The notes under the pieces were generated by a model. That model had not been told where the DNA came from and searched no databases. It saw only the letters and a program-made list of their open reading frames with translations. A stretch of DNA of 64,000 bases from IMG/VR virus record IMGVR_UViG_2541047879_000001; one strand, written 5' to 3'. Positions 6,354 to 41,096 of the stretch are shown one piece after another. How positions within the stretch are numbered: the first letter of the stretch is position 1; each line of letters begins with the position of its first letter. Position numbers and translations under genes: made by a program. This DNA comes from a virus (lineage: Duplodnaviria; Heunggongvirae; Uroviricota; Caudoviricetes).

Positions 6354-6854
6354 TCAGACTTTCGGCAAGTCGTAACGACATAACCATTCATCCGCCGAAC
6401 GGCGGGCCTCAAGACCGGGGAGTTTCACCCCCTTTGAATAAATCCAGCGGATATACTGCTTACAGGACGCGGGCATCTGCCCGGCATTGATAAGGCGCAG
6501 GAGCGTGGAGTTGCGAAAGTTCGTTTCACCGGCCCAGAAAATCCAGGAGGCCAACGCCACCGTCTGACCACGGGTAAGCGGCACCTGAACATGACGATCG
6601 ATAGCCGCAAAGGCCCATTTCATGTCCTTTTCCAGCAGCTCCAGACACTCTTCATCAGTTTTTGTCATCCCCGGTTTCACATCCGGGCCGGTATGGCCGT
6701 AACAGATGGTGGGGGTGCCGGTGGGATCAATGTACGTGGTGTTTTCTTTCCCTTCCCAGTAGCCGGTGTAGTGCGTGGCAATGGTGAACGTCCCGGCTCC
6801 GGCCAGAACAAGGGCAATCAGCTTTTTACGCAGGGGTGCGGGGAGTTTTGGCAT
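6354..6854 (-). CDS. SAR endolysin (phage lysozyme, GH24-like)
   Basis: 166 aa; N-terminal signal-anchor-release-like segment LIALVLAGAGTFTIA and catalytic region TICYGHTG resembling phage 21 R-type lysozymes. Confidence 0.8.
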   Translation of the reverse strand: MPKLPAPLRKKLIALVLAGAGTFTIATHYTGYWEGKENTTYIDPTGTPTICYGHTGPDVKPGMTKTDEECLELLEKDMKWAFAAIDRHVQVPLTRGQTVALASWIFWAGETNFRNSTLLRLINAGQMPASCKQYIRWIYSKGVKLPGLEARRSADEWLCRYDLPKV

Positions 6855-7348: not shown

Positions 7349-7418
7349 ACCCGCCTCCGGTCATCATTACACAGGGCAAGTTTAAAATAAAAATCCCGCG
7401 CTGTGGCGGGATTTGGAG

Positions 7419-7931
7419 TTAACGGGGGAATGATTTTTCATACAGCCTGCAAACGCGCTCATAACTTATCACTGTACGCGCTGACATCCCCAGCACATCC
7501 AGCATTTTGCGGCGGTGCCAGCGTTTGAGACGCTCCAGCACATCAGAGGCCAGTGCGGGGTGTTGCTCCAGCCACTGCCAGTTAGCCACACCTTCACCGC
7601 CGTTCTGCGCGGCCGTCTGCGATTTCACCCAGCGGTTAATGGCGTTTTCCCCGCCATCAGCGATAAAGCCCTGCCGGTGCATCACTTTCCAGATGGCGCG
7701 AATTTTGGCGGTCACCGTCCCCGGTTTTAAGGCCCGGTTAACCGGCTTCTGACGCACTTTAAAACCGCGTTTTTTGAAAACATCCAGCACGCGGGATAAC
7801 TCATCCGGTGACATATCCCGGCAACTGGGTTTGCCGGTGGCTGCCAGTAGTACGGATGTGTAGGTCTCATGGTCAAGCTGTAGATCGCGTTTTGCGACAT
7901 GTATTAAGGTAATCAGGGAAGCGCGATTCAT
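7419..7931 (-). CDS. GemA-like protein (Mu gp16 family)
   Basis: 170-aa ORF immediately upstream of the Mor-like gene, Mu synteny. Confidence 0.55.
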   Translation of the reverse strand: MNRASLITLIHVAKRDLQLDHETYTSVLLAATGKPSCRDMSPDELSRVLDVFKKRGFKVRQKPVNRALKPGTVTAKIRAIWKVMHRQGFIADGGENAINRWVKSQTAAQNGGEGVANWQWLEQHPALASDVLERLKRWHRRKMLDVLGMSARTVISYERVCRLYEKSFPR

Positions 7932-20976: not shown

Positions 20977-21186
20977 TTAATTTGAATACAATGCAATTCT
21001 CGAGGACTGAAGTTTCTCGCAATTAAAATTTATCAGTTTTACTTTCTGCTCTCTGGAAACGCCTGCTTCTTTTTTACCTGAGAGCATTTTTTCGTATTCT
21101 GATTTCGTTAGTTTAGATTTTGAATATCTTGTCCAGTTAGTAGGAGTGCCACCTTCCTTTTCAATAGTGGCGGTAATTTTATACAT
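20977..21186 (-). CDS. Small Rac protein (YdaC-like)
   Basis: Start chosen at MYKITATIEKEGG...; 69 aa. Confidence 0.4.
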   Translation of the reverse strand: MYKITATIEKEGGTPTNWTRYSKSKLTKSEYEKMLSGKKEAGVSREQKVKLINFNCEKLQSSRIALYSN

Positions 21187-31168: not shown

Positions 31169-31377
31169 CGAGATTAAAGACCATTAATTCATATGTGAAT
31201 TGACAGTTTCATGGCACAGGATACGGCTAGCGTGGTTGTCTGTTTTGTGCCAGGGGCGGGCCTAACTAAGTTCACACAACATTGATTATTGAAGATTAGG
31301 TCAGAAATAAATAGGTTATTTTGATAATTTAGTTACGTTAGAATGCCGCAGTGTACAAAGTAAAAATGAGGAATAAT

Positions 31378-32739
31378 ATGACTCGGAGTGAAATAAACGT
31401 CTGGGATAAGAGACGAGGCACCAATAGTCATCGTGTGGAGGAGATTCGATCTGAAGCTCAGCACGACCTTTCTCGACTGATTCACTCGTCTGCTTTCAGA
31501 CGATTGCAATCCAAAACACAGGTTCTTGGTCTGGGTGAAAGTGATTTCTACCGCACACGACTGACTCATTCTATGGAAGTCGCACAAATCGGTTCAGGTC
31601 TTCTTGCTAAGCTGAAAATAAAATATAAAGGTAAAGAGCAAGAGCAATTTTTACCAGATAACGATCTTATGCAGGCAGTATGTCTCGCACATGATATTGG
31701 ACATCCTCCATTTGGTCACGGCGGTGAGGTAGCTCTTAACTACTGTATGCAGGATTACGGTGGTTTTGAAGGAAACGGTCAGACACTTCGCATTCTCTCG
31801 AAACTAGATAAGTATACCGTTGAACACGGACTCGATCCTACACGCAGACTTCTGCTAGGCATACTGAAATATCCGGTTAAATACTCGGATCTAGTGGTTA
31901 CAAAAGACAGAATCCCGGCCACTATCGGATCGCCGAACTGGCTCTTTAAGTCATCTGATTTTAAACCTCCAAAATGCTATCTAGATTCAGAATGCGATGT
32001 TGTAGAATTTGCTCTTTCACCATTTACTGAACAGGATCGGAGGCTTTTTACTTCCGTTGAAGATGGTCAAACTAAATCCGATCATAAAAAAGCTTCTTAT
32101 AAAGCTCTCGATACAACCATCATGGATCTTGCCGATGAAATTTCGTATTCGCTGCACGATTTGGAGGATGCTATTTCTCTCGGAATGGTGACACGAGAAA
32201 TGTGGATGGAGCATTTCAGTGAATATGAAACCCTATTTACTAACTGCCATGGAGAAACATTTTCCGCAACATGTGAATCTGTCGCGGATAGCCTTTTTGG
32301 TGAAAGTTACAAGAGAAAAGAGTGCATCGGGATGCTGGTTCACCTGATGATTACAAGCGTTGAGCTTATTACAAAGAATCCAGCATTCGAATGTGGCATG
32401 CTCAAATATAATGCGGTCCTTCCGGAAGCGGTCGAAGCACTACGGTTGAAAATTTTCAAACTGGTCAAAAATAAAGTAATTAAGCATGAAAATGTACAGC
32501 AGCTTGAATTCAAGGGACAAAAGTTGATTGTTGAGCTTTTCGGTGTGCTGGCTAACGATCCGTGTCGGTTTCTACCGGCATCAACGAGGGAAATTTACGA
32601 GCGGCAGACTAGCTTGGACGAGAAGGCTGGTATGCGAGTCATTTGCGACTATGTTTCAGGGATGACTGATGACTATGCAACAAAGCTTTATGAGAAGATC
32701 CTTATTCCACGCAAAGGGTCTATTTTTGACCATCTCTAA
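31378..32739 (+). CDS. HD-domain dGTP triphosphohydrolase-like protein (Dgt family); candidate antiphage dNTP-depletion enzyme
   Basis: N-terminal SSAFRRLQSKTQV...RLTHSMEVAQIG and HD motif VCLAHDIGHPPFGHGGE matching dGTPase family; start at ATG 31378 with GAGGA 5 nt upstream; AT-rich gene in accessory island. Confidence 0.8.
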   Translation: MTRSEINVWDKRRGTNSHRVEEIRSEAQHDLSRLIHSSAFRRLQSKTQVLGLGESDFYRTRLTHSMEVAQIGSGLLAKLKIKYKGKEQEQFLPDNDLMQAVCLAHDIGHPPFGHGGEVALNYCMQDYGGFEGNGQTLRILSKLDKYTVEHGLDPTRRLLLGILKYPVKYSDLVVTKDRIPATIGSPNWLFKSSDFKPPKCYLDSECDVVEFALSPFTEQDRRLFTSVEDGQTKSDHKKASYKALDTTIMDLADEISYSLHDLEDAISLGMVTREMWMEHFSEYETLFTNCHGETFSATCESVADSLFGESYKRKECIGMLVHLMITSVELITKNPAFECGMLKYNAVLPEAVEALRLKIFKLVKNKVIKHENVQQLEFKGQKLIVELFGVLANDPCRFLPASTREIYERQTSLDEKAGMRVICDYVSGMTDDYATKLYEKILIPRKGSIFDHL

Positions 32740-33149
32740 TGCGGCAAGAATGATGCTCTGAGTTCAATTGACCTATAAACATTAACCAAGGCATCTACCA
32801 GGGGGATATCAAATCCCCCCATTCTGAATTTGTTCGTGCAGAATCGGTGAACGTTCTCATCTGAGCGTTAAACGCCAATAATCGTTGATCTACATTGATC
32901 ATTAATACACCTTAATACCATTAGCGTCTTACTCCGTTATGAGAACAAACGCGAACTGACCTGCCCCCAGTATTAGTGACCTTCAGCTACGGTAACTTGT
33001 CCGCTTCGTGCCAGAAGCGGACATCCATAGAGAAATAAGCGATCAGTTCTTAAATTTGTTGTGATTTTTTGATTTTTTTGTATTCGCAAAGGGATTTGTG
33101 TTGGTTGTATAATTACCTAATATTCATACAGTTGAATGGGAGATGTGGG

Positions 33150-34043
33150 ATGAAGTTCTCGTACAGACATGGTTTTGATCCTGAGTATAATAAAAAGCCG
33201 ATACGGGAAGATGCTCCAGAGTGGCTTCGCTCTTTATTTTTTGTAACTGTCCTCGATAATTTTTTGTACATTGATGGTGATAGCCGCATTACGAATGATG
33301 AGAACAAGCCGTTGGGTATTAAGGCTTTGATCGAGCGACTTTGCGCAGAGAATGGTCAAGAAACAGATCATGAGGATTTCGATTCATGGTACTGCTATGA
33401 TGCTTTGAAAGCGCGTTTGCAACATATGCGTTGGTTTCAATTTTATGATGCTGTTGAGATTATCGGAGATCTATTAAGAAAAAGAGATGTAGAAAGAGGC
33501 CATACTTGGGGTAAGAAGGCATTAGAAGACATTACTTTTACATCATATCGTCAGAAATTGAACGAGTTATTCGCATCTCGAAATATTGACTGGAAAATGA
33601 ATTCTGCTGGTAGGTTAGAAACACCACTACCAAATGAATTAGAACAAAAAATCGATGAAACTAACAACTTATTGCAAGACCAGTTTGAACCTGCAAGGAG
33701 GCACTATGTGAAAGCCCGGGCTTTTGCATTAGGTGCGCATAAGGATCCAGAAAATTCCATAAAAGAATCAATAAGTGCAATAGAAAGCATGTGTCGGACT
33801 TATTATCCTTCAGCCTCAACCTTGGGCGATGTATTAAAACTGATGAGAAAAGAAAACACTATCTCACCTATGCTTTTAACGGTGATAGAGAAATTTTACG
33901 CTTATACAAATGCAGAGCCAGCAGTAAGACATGGTAGCAACAAGGTTTCTTCTGTCTTGGAATACGATGCTGAATTCGTGTTGCATATATCAGCAGCATT
34001 TATTAGAACAATAATACAAAGAAAAGCTGTTTTGGATAACTAA
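33150..34043 (+). CDS. Hypothetical protein, possibly Abi-like (helical, contains Rx6H motif RAFALGAH)
   Basis: Start at ATG 33150 (MKFSYRHGFDPEY...) preceded by candidate -10 TATAAT (33108-33113); AT-rich; domain assignment unverified. Confidence 0.5.
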   Translation: MKFSYRHGFDPEYNKKPIREDAPEWLRSLFFVTVLDNFLYIDGDSRITNDENKPLGIKALIERLCAENGQETDHEDFDSWYCYDALKARLQHMRWFQFYDAVEIIGDLLRKRDVERGHTWGKKALEDITFTSYRQKLNELFASRNIDWKMNSAGRLETPLPNELEQKIDETNNLLQDQFEPARRHYVKARAFALGAHKDPENSIKESISAIESMCRTYYPSASTLGDVLKLMRKENTISPMLLTVIEKFYAYTNAEPAVRHGSNKVSSVLEYDAEFVLHISAAFIRTIIQRKAVLDN

Positions 34044-34283
34044 GTCAGACTTACAGCCAACTGACTGTCTCTTATTATTCAAAACATAATAATGTTAGGT
34101 CCGCTTATCGCACATCAGGGACAACCATACTCAAATCTCCCACATTGCAGGAGATTTGAGTGTGAACACGTCACCGTGGAACAAAGACTGTATCATCGGT
34201 CAAAAAAGACCTGGTTATCTAGCAAAAACTTTTAACATACCAACAAACTTAATTTATTTAAATGCTATTAATACAACTAATGT

Positions 34284-35510
34284 TTAAAATATATATTTTA
34301 TATCAACCCAATTTTTAGCATTATTGTCAACTAAAGTAACGCTATGTCCATGACTTGAATTTATAGCATCGATTACTGATTGTGATGGGTGTCCATGTGA
34401 ATGACCATCCGACTGAGCTATAAACAAAACATTATCAAAATCCGCAATTATTTTTTGATTGAAATTTAATTCCGAACCATGATGAGGTAATGTCATCACC
34501 CTTACCGTTTTAATCACTTTTGAATAGAATTCAGCCCATTTATTATAATACAATGATGTATTAAGCTTTGAGTCACCTGTTAATAAAACAGATCTAATTC
34601 CTTTATCTCTATCAAAGAGAAAATGTCGCTCAACCCGACTATTTCTAAAACTAAACCACTCACGAGAAGGCTCATTAACAATTTTCATCTCAGCTTCTTG
34701 ATTATTAATAATCAAGAGATTGATTGATATTACATTATGATCGCCAGCAAGTTTTAAATAACACTCGCGTAATTTCTTTCTTTCCCCCGTGCTAGTTAAT
34801 ATTTTAAGCATTTTTTTCTTACTTAACTCAGTAAAACCATTTTCTATTAACTGCTGACTGAAAATTTCAATTTTCTTACGTGAACGGGGCGGTATCCAAG
34901 AAATAAATGACATTAGTGTATCAGTTTTGTTTTCCCCAATCCTTTTAACCAACCAACGGTTACATTCAACATCTCCTTTGGAGTCAGATATTTTCATTGG
35001 TAAGCTTACAGCGCTATCCTTAATGTTTTCACTATTAAATATAGGAGGGTCAAAATTATCATCAATATCACAGGGGTAAAGCAAAGATATATCTGCCTCA
35101 GGCAACCTTGATTTTATCCATTTGACAGGATCAATGAGAAATTCCATAAAAAGACCTGACGTAGAATTAGAGCATAGCTCCGATGCAATTAAGTAATAGC
35201 TATCATGGATATCTAGGTATGGTAATACAACCTTGCGTATTTTGTTATCTACAAGCTGACATAAATGGTCAAATCCATTTATATGGTCTGAATCCAAATG
35301 AGAGATGTATACCACATCAATATATTTCTCATCAATATTAAAGAGAGATTTAGCCACATCCATCTCCCTACGCAACGCATTTAATTGGTCACTTCCGCAG
35401 TCATACACATAACTGTAAAGCAAACTACCATCCCTTCCCCTCAGTCCGCCTAAACTAAATCCACCCTGGCCAACGGGAAACAATCTTTTATGAAATACTT
35501 CTCCGCTCAT
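34284..35510 (-). CDS. Standalone metallo-beta-lactamase-fold hydrolase (ComEC/Rec2-type MBL domain, putative nuclease)
   Basis: 408 aa; motifs PVGQGG, HLDSDHINGF (HxDxDH-type metal site) and LPHHGS characteristic of the ComEC-type MBL domain; no TM segments; AT-rich. Confidence 0.7.
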   Translation of the reverse strand: MSGEVFHKRLFPVGQGGFSLGGLRGRDGSLLYSYVYDCGSDQLNALRREMDVAKSLFNIDEKYIDVVYISHLDSDHINGFDHLCQLVDNKIRKVVLPYLDIHDSYYLIASELCSNSTSGLFMEFLIDPVKWIKSRLPEADISLLYPCDIDDNFDPPIFNSENIKDSAVSLPMKISDSKGDVECNRWLVKRIGENKTDTLMSFISWIPPRSRKKIEIFSQQLIENGFTELSKKKMLKILTSTGERKKLRECYLKLAGDHNVISINLLIINNQEAEMKIVNEPSREWFSFRNSRVERHFLFDRDKGIRSVLLTGDSKLNTSLYYNKWAEFYSKVIKTVRVMTLPHHGSELNFNQKIIADFDNVLFIAQSDGHSHGHPSQSVIDAINSSHGHSVTLVDNNAKNWVDIKYIF

Positions 35511-36224
35511 ATATCCTTCTTACACCCTAACGTGATCATAAAATTGTCTTAAAGTTAAGTTTAAAGCTAAAAAGTCACAGCTCATTCCAACTCGTGAGCA
35601 ATAGGAATGTATATTCAATCAGTTAGAGGATCAACCCGATTTTCTCTAATGAGATTTCGCAACGCAGTACGAACAGCAGCTACTTCTGCCATCTCATTAA
35701 CAACCACACTGGACTACAATCCCCTAAGTTCTACAGACTGTAACCATATCCTCTTCACAGAAATAATCTGATTAATGCTGAAGGTCATCTTTCTCGACGC
35801 GAATGTATGACATAACAACCTCAGTTAATTATCTTTCGATAGAAAAATACCTTCACAAAAGGTTTAAGCAACCCATCACAAGACAACACGCTAAGCTTGC
35901 CTTGTAAGCGTCCTGCTTAACCGAACAGTTCGCTTTCAGAGGATCTCCGGAGAACAGCTCCGATGCCTTATAAGGCCAATGCTCGCTCCTCGCTCACTGC
36001 GGACCTAAGGTTTGGTCAGCTTGTTCGCACTCTGCCAAAAGCGGGAGTTACTCCCATTCGGTGTTAATCAATGTAGAGCAGATCAATCAACGACAAAGAA
36101 AATGAGAGGCATATCACTACTCATATGAAAATTATTGTAGTAAAGTGAGCCGTAAGTTCATCATTTATAAATCATATAGCATATATGTTATATCAATTTT
36201 AATTTAAATGGCAGAATAATTACC

Positions 36225-36929
36225 ATGGAAAAAATTAAAACTCCTTGTCCATATTGTAAAGGTGAAAAAAATTGCCACATAATAGGCCATAAAAAAAGAG
36301 AATGGAGTGAGGATGATGGGGGCAACTATTTTTGGGCTGAAAGTGAATACAAATTATTAGAGTGTATGGGGTGCGACGGAATATTTACATATATTAAATC
36401 CCGTCACAGTGAAGATTACGACATTGAAAGAGATGAGTCAGGCTATGATTGTATGGTATATAACTATCATATATCAACATATCCCACTCAAGAGCAAGAA
36501 GAGATTAGACCAACTTGGTTTGGTGAGACATTAAACAAAGATCGTCAGCTGTATGTAATAATGAACGAAATGTACATCGCATTTCAAAATAAATCATTCA
36601 TTTTAGCGGCGATTGGACTTAGAACTATTTTTGACAGAACAGTTGAGGTTCTAAATATTCATCCAGGATATACATTAGGCCAGAAGGTTGACATTCTTAA
36701 AGAGGAAGGTTTTATTGGGGAAACAGAAAGGAGCCAACTTAAAATTGTAACCGAAGCTGGCAACTCAGCTGCACACAGGACATGGGCACCGAACGAAACT
36801 GAATTTAAATCGCTTTTGGTAATTATAGAAAATTTTGTAATGCGAACAATACTAAAAAATGAGGATATATTTAAGATTACAGAAAAATTACCTGCGAAAT
36901 ATCCAAGACCTCCCAAAAAGCAAGAATAA
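36225..36929 (+). CDS. Zinc-ribbon / DUF4145-like (HEPN-superfamily-like) protein
   Basis: 234 aa; N-terminal CPYC...CMGC zinc ribbon; C-terminal AAIGLRTIFDRTVE...GNSAAHRTW resembling DUF4145; AT-rich. Confidence 0.6.
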   Translation: MEKIKTPCPYCKGEKNCHIIGHKKREWSEDDGGNYFWAESEYKLLECMGCDGIFTYIKSRHSEDYDIERDESGYDCMVYNYHISTYPTQEQEEIRPTWFGETLNKDRQLYVIMNEMYIAFQNKSFILAAIGLRTIFDRTVEVLNIHPGYTLGQKVDILKEEGFIGETERSQLKIVTEAGNSAAHRTWAPNETEFKSLLVIIENFVMRTILKNEDIFKITEKLPAKYPRPPKKQE

Positions 36930-37367
36930 TGTACGTAAGTGTAAATAGAGCTAAGAGATTATATATTGACTCTGGTTATCTCTATTAGCACATGCTTTTT
37001 GTAATGCCTTAACTGATTATTTAAACTCCTGTCAGCTTTTCGCTCAAAGCGGACTAAAGTGTTGGCTTGTGACTGACTTAGCGCATTTAAGGAAGTGGTG
37101 GTGGTGACGGGGTGTTGTGTCCCATTTCCACAGAATAAATCAGAGAAACTATAGCGGCTGTAATGGCAATCTATGGTCTTGCTATTGCTCTTATGGATCA
37201 CCTTTCTGATTGATTTCATATTGGCGAGGTAACGGGAGTTAAGTAGAATAGCTGCGGGTGCTTGAGGCTGTCTGCCTCGGGCATGAACACCAAAGGCAGA
37301 TAGAGAAAAGCCCCAGTTAACATTACGCGTCCGGCAAGACGCTTAACATTAATCTGAGGCCACATCT

Positions 37368-37616
37368 ATGCTTTGCATACGTAGATTAGCCTCTTACCGA
37401 CCAAAAGGTCAAGGAGAAGCAGGCTATGAAGCAGCAAAAGGCGATGTTAATCACCCTGATCGTCATCTGTTTAACCGTTATAGTGACGGTACTGGTAACG
37501 AGGAAAGACCTCTGCGAGGTACGAATCCGAACCGACCAGACGGAGGTCGCTGTCTTCACAGCTTACGAACTTGGGGAGTAAGAGGACCAGCGGGGAGAAA
37601 TCCCCGCAACCTCTGA
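37368..37616 (+). CDS. mok: mok-like overlapping reading frame of hok locus
   Basis: 82-aa frame starting 58 nt upstream of hok and overlapping it in another frame, as in hok/sok loci. Confidence 0.45.
   Translation: MLCIRRLASYRPKGQGEAGYEAAKGDVNHPDRHLFNRYSDGTGNEERPLRGTNPNRPDGGRCLHSLRTWGVRGPAGRNPRNL
37426..37581 (+). CDS. hok: Hok/Gef-family type I toxin
   Basis: Own translation MKQQKAMLITLIVICLTVIVTVLVTRKDLCEVRIRTDQTEVAVFTAYELGE (51 aa, below track cutoff), near-identical to E. coli Hok proteins; SD AAGGAG upstream; 3' hairpin GCGGGGA-GAAA-TCCCCGC at 37590-37607. Confidence 0.85.
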   Translation: MKQQKAMLITLIVICLTVIVTVLVTRKDLCEVRIRTDQTEVAVFTAYELGE

Positions 37617-39927: not shown

Positions 39928-40458
39928 GGCTGGTTTATTGTATGCCAAATGATTATTAAAAAGGTTGTGTTAATAACAAAACCCGAAATAATATGCCTGC
40001 ATATTTTTATCTTGCTTATATTCTGCATATTGTGCATAGCAGGCTCATCCCTGCAATCAAAACTGTATGATGAGTATTTTTTGTTTTCCTTTTTTCCAGT
40101 CATCTGATGATGACCTGCTTCTTTTTAATCCGGATCGACATCAGTTTTTTAAGATAATTCCTGCGAGTTATATGCATAAATACCACAAACTCCGCATTTT
40201 ATGTGGTTGGGAGTTGCCGGGCGCGCAGTGAGTTTGCTAAGAAAACTCCTGCATGGTGAATCCCCCTGTGCGGTGGGGTGATACCATTAACCTTTTCTGT
40301 CGCCGACAGGTATCACGAACATTTTGTTCACCGGGAGGCACCCGGCACCATGCACTTCAATAGATTCTCTCCACATTATGGATATTCTTTCAGAATATCC
40401 CACGCAGACTTTGTGTAAATGTTAACAAATGTGCGTTTTATTTGATCTGATTCGCTGT

Positions 40459-40517: not shown

Positions 40518-40946
40518 ATGGGTTTTCGTAGCGCATCAATTCTTACGTTGATTATTAGTGGGATTATTATCGGGTGCACTGATGCTGTATCGACAAATTA
40601 TCATGACCGTACATCATATTACTCCGATAAAGCAATAGAGACACAGTATGTGAGTTCATCTGAACGTACTTCTGATGTTAGTGAGGATATCCGTCTGTAT
40701 GCCCATCAAATCAAGAGCGCCATCGAAAAACAGTTCGGGGATGCGAGTAAGTATTCAGGAAAAGAGTGTACACTGAGAATGCATATGGCCCCGAATGGCC
40801 TTCTACTGGAGGTTAAAAGAGAAAGTGGAGACCTCGATTTATGTCGTGAAGCGATGAATGCGATAAAGAATGCTGATATACCTGCCCCCCCTTCGCCGGA
40901 AGTATATAAAGTATTTCAAAATGGGGTGCTGGATTTTAAACCCTGA
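40518..40946 (+). CDS. Lipoprotein with TolA C-terminal domain III-like fold
   Basis: 142 aa; signal peptide with lipobox IIGC; C-terminus YAHQIKSAIEKQFGDASKYSGKECTLRMHMAPNGLLLEVKRESGDLDLCREAMNAIKNADIPAPPSPEVYKVFQNGVLDFKP aligns closely with the E. coli TolA C-terminal domain. Confidence 0.7.
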   Translation: MGFRSASILTLIISGIIIGCTDAVSTNYHDRTSYYSDKAIETQYVSSSERTSDVSEDIRLYAHQIKSAIEKQFGDASKYSGKECTLRMHMAPNGLLLEVKRESGDLDLCREAMNAIKNADIPAPPSPEVYKVFQNGVLDFKP

Positions 40947-41096
40947 TATTTATTGTTTTGTAATAAACGGTTTCGGCTTAGGTTTGTTCTGACACAGCTA
41001 CGGCACTGAGCTAAATTTAGCGGATAGTCAGCTCTGAGCCAGTGGCGGACGTAACAACTACTATTGCTGAGATTTTAATGGATTGAGGAGCAAGAA

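What the first reader, a model, noticed from the sequence alone, without database searches (positions are those of the whole stretch)
35511..36224. 715-bp ORF-free spacer between the MBL and DUF4145 genes
No ORF of 60 aa or more on either strand in a prophage that is otherwise tightly packed. The spacer contains a 9-bp inverted repeat pair TAATGAGAT...ATCTCATTA (35648-35699) and a GGGAGT/ACTCCC hairpin. It could hold divergent promoters, a non-coding RNA (for example an antitoxin or guide-like RNA) or a decayed gene.
Basis: seen in the sequence. Interest (0 to 1): 0.45.

Follow-up and report, generated by a model that had tools for sequence, protein, structure and literature searches.

The report
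Defence-cassette junction plus decayed small gene
The "empty" 714-bp gap holds a broken copy of a small conserved gene and a pair of 24-bp recombination-type sites; these sites mark the joint between two swappable anti-phage gene cassettes, a repeat first seen in phage P2 and shown here to be widespread.

Summary
The spacer 35511-36224 is ORF-free as described, but it is neither empty nor a structured RNA gene.

- **Decayed gene.** 35615-35813(-) is a pseudogene of a conserved 65-aa enterobacterial protein. It carries an in-frame TAA at codon 14 and a 1-nt insertion.
- **Cassette junction.** 35981-36046 is a composite of two 24-bp sites 18 nt apart: GTCCGCn-TGAGCGA-rrAGCGGAC on the minus strand and a TGTGCCA-type sister site on the plus strand. 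These are the cores of the inverted repeats annotated around the phage P2 Z/fun region (Nilsson et al. 2004). Here they bound the MBL cassette and the DUF4145 cassette of a Rac-like prophage. The same DUF4145 cassette, with the same ends, sits in an e14 prophage.
- **No RNA family.** Rfam and RNAalifold give nothing.

Across about 250 loci, cassettes run TGTGCCA(+)…cargo…TGAGCGA(-). Homology breakpoints map to the invariant 7-nt centre. A 200-aa tyrosine recombinase gene sits at a fixed distance between the two sites, and a truncated remnant of it lies at 34097-34211.

Inferred, not shown: this recombinase swaps cassettes through the sites. Known repeat, under-described system; moderate interest.

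The parts
35511..35614 (-). Gap between the pseudogene stop and the MBL start. It holds a 5-bp hairpin (35580-35584 / 35595-35599) followed by a T-run on the minus strand. It is a possible weak terminator of the small gene and the presumed site of the MBL promoter.
   Evidence: Read from the sequence. It does not pass the terminator or promoter consensus scan. This stretch is not conserved with the other small-gene loci. Inference only.
35615..35813 (-). Pseudogene of a conserved 65-aa protein (WP_021560858 / WP_001146352 family). ATG at 35811-35813, in-frame TAA at 35772-35774 (codon 14), 1-nt insertion near 35728, original stop at 35615-35617.
Evidence: 81% DNA identity to the intact CDS L005:5006-5203 and 72% to L006:5006-5203. 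34 protein clusters in Enterobacterales are 61-98% identical to the intact form.
35814..35901 (-). Ribosome-binding site (GAGG) and proximal upstream region of the small gene, with a weak promoter-like TTGCTT-N17-TATTTT.
   Evidence: Conserved with E. coli RM10042, E. whittamii, Citrobacter and Enterobacter loci. The promoter was read by eye and is below the scan threshold.
35902..35980 (-). Cargo-side extension of about 80 nt next to the TGAGCGA site (ATTGGCCTTATAAG…CTCTGAAAGCGAAC…GCTTACA). It is conserved as primary sequence and its role is unknown.
   Evidence: It recurs next to unrelated cargo: a 65-aa gene, a giant DEAD/DEAH helicase, a NYN gene on Klebsiella phage-plasmids, and metagenomes. 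There is no consensus RNA structure and no consistent ORF.
35981..36004 (-). TGAGCGA-type 24-bp site (GTCCGCAGTGAGCGAGGAGCGAGC), the right end of the MBL cassette.
   Evidence: Position-weight-matrix score 22.5, with 0 hits in 50 shuffles. It has the same core as the 'right inverted repeat' of GenBank AJ512680 and the P2 Z region.
36005..36022 (.). 18-nt spacer between the two sites of the junction.
   Evidence: 18 nt is the modal spacing of TGAGCGA(-)/TGTGCCA(+) pairs, which make up 39 of 43 distinct adjacent pairs.
36023..36046 (+). Degenerate TGTGCCA-type 24-bp site (GTTCGCACTCTGCCAAAAGCGGGA), the left end of the DUF4145 cassette.
   Evidence: Position-weight-matrix score 16.1. Homology with the e14 prophage of strain EC11 begins inside this site, at 36031.
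36047..36224 (+). AT-rich 5' region of the DUF4145 gene, where its promoter is presumed to lie.
   Evidence: 89% identical to the region upstream of the DUF4145 gene in EC11. No consensus promoter was found.
36225..36929 (+). DUF4145 gene, the cargo of the right-hand cassette.
   Evidence: Pfam PF13643 E = 3e-11 and PHROG 1305.
37031..37054 (-). TGAGCGA-type site (GTCCGCTTTGAGCGAAAAGCTGAC), the right end of the DUF4145 cassette.
   Evidence: score 37.1. Homology with EC11 stops exactly at 37054.
34284..35510 (-). MBL-fold gene, the cargo of the left-hand cassette. Its C-terminal domain resembles LmuA, RT-associated MBL and Avs1a effectors.
   Evidence: Pfam PF00753, plus PADLOC and NCBIfam matches that are all below family cut-offs.
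34097..34211 (+). Remnant of the small-recombinase module. It comprises a hybrid site at 34099-34122(-), an 11-bp hairpin over the ribosome-binding site at 34130-34160, and a GTG start at 34162 with about 17 codons of a 200-aa tyrosine recombinase, then a break.
   Evidence: 90-95% identical to the 5' end of intact 603-nt 'site-specific integrase' genes in about 790 E. coli genomes.
32999..33022 (+). TGTGCCA-type site, the left end of the AbiJ-like (PDC-S32) cassette. Further sites lie at 31238-31261(+) before the dGTPase gene and at 41027-41050(+).
   Evidence: scores 35.2, 23.5 and 22.6.

Best explanation
Shown: the spacer is a patchwork left by cassette traffic in the accessory-gene hotspot of a Rac-like prophage. 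Reading the plus strand, it holds four things. First, the 5' flank of the MBL gene. Second, a dead copy of a 65-aa gene that elsewhere precedes other effector genes. Third, an approximately 80-nt conserved stretch followed by a 66-bp junction: a TGAGCGA-type 24-bp site, 18 nt, then a TGTGCCA-type 24-bp site. Fourth, the 5' flank of DUF4145. The two sites are the cores of the inverted repeats known from the P2 Z/fun region. Each has 7-bp inverted arms (GTCCGCT/AGCGGAC) around a central region whose 7 nt (TGAGCGA or TGTGCCA) are invariant. Cassettes run TGTGCCA(+)…cargo in either orientation…TGAGCGA(-), and neighbouring cassettes are joined by the 66-bp junction. Inferred: the sites are core-type recombination sites. 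Strand exchange occurs in the 7-nt centre. Because the two ends of a cassette carry different centres in inverted orientation, a cassette is not excised or inverted. Instead it can be swapped between two DNA molecules by one crossover at each end, which is the logic of recombinase-mediated cassette exchange. The likely enzyme is a 200-aa tyrosine recombinase with a catalytic domain only. Its gene sits between the two sites in other genomes and survives here only as a stump at 34162-34211. The cassettes in this prophage are therefore probably frozen unless the enzyme is supplied in trans.
For: Pseudogene.
Identity of the sites with annotated P2 repeats: (hit on the 'right inverted repeat' of AJ512680). 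The literature statement that fun is flanked by inverted repeats enabling site-specific exchange is in PMC8987985, citing Nilsson et al. 2004.
Sites in the window: 7 sites, all within 31.2-41.1 kb, and none in 50 shuffles.
Same cassette with the same ends in another prophage.
Grammar: 120 of 162 distant consecutive pairs are TGTGCCA(+)…TGAGCGA(-). 39 of 43 adjacent pairs are TGAGCGA(-)-18 nt-TGTGCCA(+) (examples).
Junction of conserved and variable DNA at the site.
Breakpoints: site positions 4 and 8 follow the upstream flank (1% mismatch), while positions 16-17 are unlinked from it (50%), in 139 pairs.
Abundance: more than 120 IMG/VR contigs and 3435 of 5426 complete E. coli genomes, never annotated.
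Recombinase: PF00589 only. Its gene lies 40 nt after a TGAGCGA(-) site and 22 nt before a TGTGCCA(+) site in the closely related family. Truncated remnants occur next to sites in the window and in many other loci.
Against: No recombination was observed, and no binding or cleavage data exist here. The breakpoint analysis used sites collected with a pattern that fixed 20 of 24 positions, so it cannot resolve crossovers finer than positions 8-16. It also rests on an unknown number of independent events. Most genomes with sites lack the small recombinase (about 795 against 3435 genomes). The sites next to the recombinase gene are the degenerate, low-scoring ones, which would also fit an autoregulatory operator. 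Distant homologues of the recombinase (58-65% identity) have few recognisable sites. The left end of the MBL cassette and the right end of the dGTPase cassette are not recognisable in the window. I could not read Nilsson et al. 2004, so I do not know how much of this they already showed.
Confidence: 0.7

Rival explanations
1. The 24-bp hairpins are RNA-level punctuation of independent 'moron' transcription units, acting as terminator-like or 3'-end-stabilising stem-loops. They promote cassette shuffling only passively, as the sole shared microhomology for homologous recombination (Red/RecT/RecA). This is the classical 'linker' model, as proposed for PeSLs in T4-like phages.
For: The sites lie mostly near gene 3' ends. 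The nearest downstream ORF is convergent in 57 of 88 cases, typically 30-110 nt away. The arms often differ by C/T where a G-U pair would be kept. PeSLs give a precedent (PMC2839356 and PMC4122927). Many genomes have sites but no small recombinase.
Against: No U-tract follows the stems, and no terminator-like hit was found in the spacer. The loop is as conserved as the stem and comes in exactly two types with a strict orientation grammar and an 18-nt spacing. A bare terminator does not need these features. All mapped breakpoints fall in the central 7 nt rather than across the 24-bp identity. The site at 35981-36004 lies upstream of, not behind, the co-oriented genes.
Confidence: 0.2
2. The GC-rich stretch 35880-36060 encodes a structured small RNA (an antitoxin, a guide or a cis-regulatory leader) for the MBL or DUF4145 gene.
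For: GC content is locally raised, 48-55% against about 35% in the flanks. The sequence is conserved across genera and lies next to defence genes. The MBL protein weakly resembles an RT-associated MBL of DRT systems.
Against: There is no Rfam match. RNAalifold on 12-13 diverged copies gives -1.4 and -1.8 kcal/mol with no compensatory pair on either strand. No reverse transcriptase gene is among the annotated genes around the spacer, and the four flanking genes scanned here have no RT domain. The element occurs next to unrelated or convergent genes. The small gene's putative promoter lies downstream of it.
Confidence: 0.04
3. The sites are operators for a DNA-binding regulator, for example the small recombinase acting as a repressor or an unknown prophage regulator. 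On this view the spacer is a divergent regulatory region controlling MBL and DUF4145.
For: The layout is 7-bp inverted arms at a fixed spacing. Sites sit 40 nt upstream of the recombinase start, next to a hairpin over the ribosome-binding site. The spacer lies between divergent genes.
Against: Sites occur equally often between convergent genes and behind genes. They coincide with homology breakpoints. No consensus promoters were found in the spacer.
Confidence: 0.06

Closest known systems
Inverted repeats flanking the Z/fun (Z-region) hotspot of P2-like phages (Nilsson, Karlsson & Haggård-Ljungquist, Mol Biol Evol 2004; GenBank AJ512680 repeat_region features)
   Same: The 24-bp cores are the same: TGTGCCA type on the left and inverted TGAGCGA type on the right. 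They flank AT-rich foreign ORFs in either orientation. Site-specific recombination was already proposed for them.
   Different: Here the sites lie in a lambdoid (Rac-like) prophage between the replication and lysis genes, not between P2 genes G and FI. They form an array of at least four cassettes. The annotated P2 repeats (91-113 bp) extend from the core into the phage backbone, whereas the conserved ~80-nt extension in this window lies on the cargo side. I could not check them against the 2004 paper, which is not held.
Integrons (IntI tyrosine recombinase, attI/attC, gene-cassette arrays)
   Same: Both have arrays of single-gene or few-gene cassettes separated by short imperfect palindromes, with a tyrosine recombinase gene beside the array. 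Both include recombinase-less arrays, comparable to CALINs.
   Different: The sites are 24 bp with two fixed centres, not 57-141-bp attC sites with R''/L''-L'/R' boxes and GTTRRRY. Cargo has either orientation and probably its own promoters. The recombinase is 200 aa with no IntI-specific insertion and scores far below the integron-integrase cut-off (58 against 220 bits). The end arrangement predicts exchange rather than excision as a circle.
Recombinase-mediated cassette exchange with heterospecific lox/FRT sites (an engineering method)
   Same: A cassette is flanked by two sites that share arms but differ in the central spacer, so each end recombines only with its like. The result is a swap of the intervening DNA.
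   Different: That is an artificial design built on Cre or Flp. Here it is only an inferred natural analogue with no experimental test.
PeSLs (promoter-early stem-loops) of T4-like phages (PMC2839356, PMC4122927)
   Same: Both are short conserved stem-loop motifs at the borders of variable genes in hyperplastic regions, proposed to mediate modular shuffling.
   Different: PeSLs combine a promoter and a terminator and are thought to act through homologous recombination. The present sites have no promoter or U-tract, come in two types with a strict grammar, and are linked to a recombinase gene.
FimB/FimE-type small tyrosine recombinases
   Same: Both are about 200 aa, with the catalytic domain only and no N-terminal core-binding domain. 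There is a weak NCBIfam match to 'tyrosine-type DNA invertase' (25 bits).
   Different: The match is far below the family cut-off (222 bits). No invertible promoter element is involved here.

Membership tests
P2 Z-region inverted repeats (Nilsson et al. 2004) | Sequence match to the annotated left and right inverted repeats | tested here: met
   The motif query hits the 'right inverted repeat' of AJ512680 and the G-FI gap of P2, Wphi, L-413C and others. The cores were read in L182 and L183. Window sites score 16-37 bits with matrices trained on other loci.
P2 Z-region inverted repeats (Nilsson et al. 2004) | An inverted pair bracketing variable foreign ORFs | tested here: met
   The DUF4145 cassette runs 36023(+)…37054(-), and the same cassette with the same ends is in e14 of EC11. 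The AbiJ-like cassette runs 32999(+)…34122(-).
P2 Z-region inverted repeats (Nilsson et al. 2004) | Location between the tail genes G and FI of a P2-like phage | tested here: not met
   The window is a Rac-like lambdoid prophage, shown by RalA, ydaV, trkG and a ttcA-side integrase. This is therefore an instance of the repeat outside P2.
P2 Z-region inverted repeats (Nilsson et al. 2004) | The repeats act as substrates of site-specific recombination | not testable with these tools
   Only indirect support is available: breakpoints in the 7-nt centre and a linked recombinase gene.
Tyrosine-recombinase core-type site | Inverted binding arms around a short central (overlap) region | tested here: met
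   The layout is GTCCGCT-n-TGAGCGA-rr-AGCGGAC. Of 92 distinct 24-mers that passed the hairpin filter, most show these arms and one of the two centres.
Tyrosine-recombinase core-type site | Crossovers confined to the central region | tested here: inconclusive
   The pattern fits this, and the window/EC11 breakpoints agree. However, the collection pattern fixed most positions, and the number of independent events is unknown.
Tyrosine-recombinase core-type site | Binding and cleavage by a cognate recombinase | not testable with these tools
   The candidate is the 200-aa PF00589 protein.
Integron | IntI-type integrase | tested here: not met
   The protein has 200 aa. The best NCBIfam match, to the XerA/integron-integrase model, scores 58 bits against a cut-off of 220. 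Only a 17-codon stump is present in the window.
Integron | attC sites (57-141 bp, R''/L''…L'/R', GTTRRRY) | tested here: not met
   The sites are 24 bp with different consensus sequences.
Structured ncRNA (any Rfam family, or a new one) | A covariance-model match, or a conserved structure with covariation | tested here: not met
   Rfam; RNAalifold, both strands, 0 compensatory pairs.
65-aa enterobacterial small-protein family (WP_021560858-like) | Homology over the whole coding sequence | tested here: met
   81% DNA identity over the CDS and its upstream region.
65-aa enterobacterial small-protein family (WP_021560858-like) | Intact reading frame | tested here: not met
   TAA at codon 14 and a +1 frameshift, so this copy is a pseudogene.
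Intrinsic terminator | GC-rich stem followed by a U-tract | tested here: not met
   No terminator-like site was found in 35400-36330, and no T-run follows the 24-bp sites.

The most novel reading that the evidence does not exclude
The two 24-bp site types and the 200-aa tyrosine recombinase may form a natural cassette-exchange system. It would be integron-like in outcome but distinct in its sites, its enzyme and its logic: heterospecific ends and swapping rather than excision. Such a system would move anti-phage and other accessory genes between P2-like phages, lambdoid prophages, e14, phage-plasmids and integrative islands across Enterobacterales. This would explain how defence 'hotspots' in unrelated elements come to share cargo.
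Probability: 0.4. Interest if true: 0.8.

Novelty: new member of a known kind. Interest (0 to 1): 0.55.

Why it matters
How defence genes hop between hotspots of unrelated mobile elements is an open question. The P2/P4 hotspot study examined here does not use the words hairpin, palindrome or inverted repeat. The 24-bp sites are present in about 63% of complete E. coli genomes and are never annotated. If they are recombination sites for the small recombinase, three things follow. Cassette boundaries could be predicted from sequence. New defence genes could be mined as 'whatever lies between a TGTGCCA(+) and a TGAGCGA(-) site'. The exchange reaction would be directly testable and possibly useful as a tool. 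For annotation of this window, the practical result is that the gap holds a pseudogene and repeat sites, not an RNA gene.

Tried and rejected
- **Rfam.** Gathering threshold on the whole window and E-value mode on the spacer gave only RalA, sok and STnc100 elsewhere, and nothing in the spacer.
- **RNAalifold.** Both strands of the conserved core gave no structure.
- **Coding potential of the core.** There is no consistent open frame. Short conserved peptides appear in frames that are broken by 1-nt and 3-nt indels between copies. A hint of 3-periodicity was not convincing.
- **ERIC/REP-type repeat.** Rejected because the ~110-nt core occurs once per genome, in only 113 of 5426 genomes.
- **Natural sub-modules.** Partial matches at 1-434 and 343-714 turned out to be IS3 and IS1 truncations.
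- **MBL protein in phage records (tblastn).** No match.
- **54-aa plus-strand ORF.** No family hit.
- **65-aa protein.** No Pfam or PHROG hit and only a sub-threshold NCBIfam match (E = 0.14, 11.8 bits). The AF2 model is confident (pLDDT 94.7, ββββα), but no PDB fold match is better than E = 0.6.
- **Literature search for the motif as a string.** Only irrelevant hits.
- **Source papers.** Nilsson et al. 2004 and Odegrip et al. 2006 are not held.
- **Promoter/terminator consensus scan.** Nothing above shuffles.

Full report
**Setting.** The window is E. coli DNA carrying a Rac-like lambdoid prophage. Rfam finds RalA at 21002-21180, sok at 37256-37431 and STnc100 at 40221-40407. Identical copies of the region lie in eight complete E. 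coli genomes, next to ydaV, hokD, the lysis genes and trkG. The finding lies in the accessory-gene stretch between the replication genes and the late genes. The order there is:

- an anti-phage dGTPase, 31351-32739(+)
- an AbiJ_NTD4 / PDC-S32 protein, 33069-34043(+)
- an MBL-fold protein, 34284-35510(-)
- the spacer
- a DUF4145 protein, 36225-36929(+)
- hok/sok

**Observation.** The spacer 35511-36224 has no ORF longer than 54 aa on either strand. Both are incidental. The inverted repeat lies inside a pseudogene and is absent from intact homologues. The hairpin is not kept in the EC11 copy of the same DNA.

**A decayed gene.** A sensitive DNA search of E. coli genomes matched window 35610-35908 at 81% to a region annotated as a 198-nt 'hypothetical protein' CDS. 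This lies in lambdoid prophages such as that of RM10042. The same stretch matched at 72% to a gene in the tRNA-Sec island of Nissle 1917. Translation and alignment show that the window copy starts with the same ATG (35811-35813) and ribosome-binding site. It then has TAA at codon 14 (35772-35774) and one extra base near 35728. The intact protein family is 65 aa, restricted to Enterobacterales (34 clusters) and strongly conserved. It has no Pfam or PHROG hit and only a sub-threshold NCBIfam match. Its AlphaFold model is confident (pLDDT 94.7; four strands and a helix) but has no significant PDB neighbour. In other genomes the gene precedes a GIY-YIG nuclease gene or a 441-aa gene, or follows an ABC-three-component system.

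**Not a structured RNA.**

- The GC-rich part (48-55% GC) upstream of the pseudogene is conserved in Citrobacter, Enterobacter, E. whittamii and E. coli.
- A core of about 110 nt (36010-35902, minus strand) also occurs without the small gene. It lies upstream of a giant DEAD/DEAH helicase gene in an island next to ychF. It also lies beside a NYN gene on about 66 Klebsiella phage-plasmids, and in viral and metagenomic contigs.
- Twelve or thirteen distinct copies give no consensus fold on either strand (-1.4 and -1.8 kcal/mol; no compensatory pair).
- No Rfam family matches, and no reading frame is kept.
- The homology between copies has sharp, shared ends.

**The 24-bp sites.** A profile of the core picked up many short extra matches to its first 30 nt, in the gaps between accessory genes of the same loci. 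They define a 24-mer, GTCYGCT-n-TGAGCGA-rr-AGCGGAC, and a sister type with centre TGTGCCA. Both share 7-bp inverted arms. Their distribution is as follows:

- A 34-nt query finds the motif in 3435 of 5426 complete E. coli genomes, at 1-7 places each, with no annotated feature under any of the listed hits but one, which lies under an IS66 tnpA gene.
- In the phage collection most hits are P2-like phages, in the gap between the tail-fibre-assembly and tail-sheath genes. One hit falls on a feature annotated 'right inverted repeat' in GenBank AJ512680, the P2-EC46 Z-region.

These repeats come from Nilsson, Karlsson & Haggård-Ljungquist (2004). [quoted passage not shown] I could not read the original. 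The P2/P4 hotspot paper does not use the words hairpin, palindrome or inverted repeat.

**Sites in the window.** Position-weight matrices trained on loci unrelated to the window find seven sites, all between 31.2 and 41.1 kb. None was found in 50 shuffles.

| Coordinates | Strand | Type |
|---|---|---|
| 31238-31261 | + | TGTGCCA |
| 32999-33022 | + | TGTGCCA |
| 34099-34122 | - | hybrid |
| 35981-36004 | - | TGAGCGA |
| 36023-36046 | + | TGTGCCA-like |
| 37031-37054 | - | TGAGCGA |
| 41027-41050 | + | hybrid |

The two sites inside the finding are 18 nt apart.

**Grammar.** In P2, P2-EC46, e14 of strain EC11, a CFT073 island, the ychF island of ST648 and other lambdoid prophages, cargo lies between a TGTGCCA(+) site and a TGAGCGA(-) site. 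Counted over all fetched loci:

- 120 of 162 distinct pairs of consecutive sites more than 250 nt apart have this arrangement.
- 39 of 43 distinct adjacent pairs are TGAGCGA(-) followed by TGTGCCA(+), with a modal gap of 18 nt.

The GC-rich centre of the spacer is therefore a standard junction between two cassettes. The DUF4145 cassette shows this directly. The e14 prophage of EC11 carries the same gene. Homology with the window starts inside the left site (36031) and stops exactly at the end of the right site (37054). On both sides, the half of the site away from the cargo follows the local flank.

**Where exchange happens.** I compared 95 distinct TGAGCGA sites from viral contigs.

- In pairs with the same upstream flank but unrelated downstream flanks (n = 139), site positions 4 and 8 agree (1% mismatch). 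Positions 16-17 are random with respect to each other (50%).
- In pairs with unrelated upstream and the same downstream flank (n = 14), the pattern is reversed.

Breakpoints therefore lie between positions 8 and 16, that is, in the invariant 7-nt centre. None lies in the equally invariant 3' arm. This is what a tyrosine-recombinase overlap region predicts, and it is not expected if the 24-mer merely supplied microhomology. The caveats are that the collecting pattern fixed most positions and that the number of independent events is unknown.

**A candidate enzyme.**

- A search with 32600-34400 found that 34097-34211 matches the 5' end of a 603-nt 'site-specific integrase' gene at 90-95% in about 790 E. 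coli genomes.
- The matched stretch comprises a degenerate site, an 11-bp hairpin that covers the ribosome-binding site, the start codon and about 17 codons. After that the window diverges.
- The intact protein has 200 aa and only the catalytic domain of the phage-integrase family. It falls below every curated NCBIfam cut-off.
- In close relatives, the gene starts 40 nt after a TGAGCGA(-) site and ends 22 nt before a TGTGCCA(+) site. It therefore occupies the place of the 18-nt junction spacer.
- Truncated remnants of the gene are frequent beside sites.

This fixed linkage makes the protein the obvious candidate recombinase. It is an inference only.

**Mechanism proposed.** The two ends of a cassette share arms but have different centres and are inverted. 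Recombination between the ends of one cassette is therefore disfavoured. Each end can still recombine with a like site on another element, so two crossovers would swap the cargo. This is the logic of recombinase-mediated cassette exchange. The steps that are shown are the sites, the grammar, the shared cassette, the position of the breakpoints and the gene linkage. The steps that are inferred are that the 200-aa protein binds and cuts these sites, and that exchange rather than excision is the outcome.

The main rival is the 'linker' model. In it the hairpins are RNA-level punctuation and recombination is homologous, as argued for PeSLs of T4-like phages. That model fits the frequent location of sites near gene 3' ends. 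It does not explain the two fixed centres, the orientation rule, the 18-nt spacing or the confinement of breakpoints.

**What remains unexplained.**

- The role of the ~80-nt cargo-side extension (35902-35980) is unknown. It is conserved next to unrelated cargo.
- The function of the 65-aa protein is unknown, as is whether its loss matters for the MBL gene.
- The position of the MBL and DUF4145 promoters is not established. The consensus scan finds nothing above chance.
- The left end of the MBL cassette and the right end of the dGTPase cassette are missing.

**Verdict.** The most informative content of the spacer is an instance of a repeat described in 2004 for P2, found here in a lambdoid prophage as part of an array of defence cassettes. 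As an object it is a new member of a known kind. The wider picture is a two-site grammar with a linked small recombinase across many mobile elements. As far as I could find, that picture is undescribed, and it is experimentally testable.

Noticed in passing
window 34097-34211: Stump of a 200-aa tyrosine recombinase gene: a site, a hairpin over the ribosome-binding site, a GTG start and about 17 codons. It lies between the AbiJ-like gene and the 3' end of the MBL gene. Intact copies are in about 790 E. coli genomes, always as a 603-nt gene.
   Followed up: yes
window 35902-35980; also L012:4025-4104, L013:4020-4100, L186:5175-5232: An approximately 80-nt sequence on the cargo side of TGAGCGA sites is conserved across genera next to unrelated genes. 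It shows no RNA structure and no ORF, and its role is unknown.
   Followed up: partly
L005:5006-5203, L006:5006-5203, P0001-P0034: A 65-aa protein family restricted to Enterobacterales has a confident ββββα model (pLDDT 94.7) with no PDB neighbour. It is often found just upstream of nuclease-like effector genes (GIY-YIG, MBL) or after an ABC-three-component system.
   Followed up: partly
window 34284-35510: The C-terminal ~100 residues of the MBL-fold protein match PADLOC models LmuA, RT-associated MBL (DRT), PDC-M48B and Avs1a. The N-terminus weakly matches the '6A-MBL' anti-phage enzyme. All matches are below family level, so this is probably an uncharacterised defence effector.
   Followed up: no
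window 36225-36929 vs L001:6942-7418: RefSeq annotates the DUF4145 gene as 158 aa in RM9513 and ET490 but as 234 aa in EC11, for nearly the same DNA. The long form starts at 36225, so the start-codon call is inconsistent.
   Followed up: no
L002:5435 (window 35944/35945) and L003:5001 (window 35853): In related strains, an IS3 and an IS1 element have inserted into this same spacer and deleted one side of it.
   Followed up: partly
window 21002-21180, 37256-37431, 40221-40407: Full-length Rfam matches to RalA (RalR antitoxin), sok (hok/sok) and STnc100.
   Followed up: no
window 41027-41050: A further hybrid 24-bp site (GTCAGCTCTGAGCCAGTGGCGGAC) lies after the 142-aa ORF 40518-40946. This suggests that the cassette array continues toward the lysis genes.
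   Followed up: no
L061 (E. coli ST648, island next to ychF), 10-24 kb: At least five junctions of the TGAGCGA/TGTGCCA type separate a giant helicase gene, an AAA ATPase gene and several hypothetical genes. This is a long cassette array in an integrative island.
   Followed up: partly
L057:2019-2244 and 7367-7473; L051:1028-1132 and 6399-6438: In two metagenomic contigs, copies of the site or core in direct orientation lie about 5 kb apart. In L051 they lie on both sides of a 1589-aa helicase-like ORF.
   Followed up: partly
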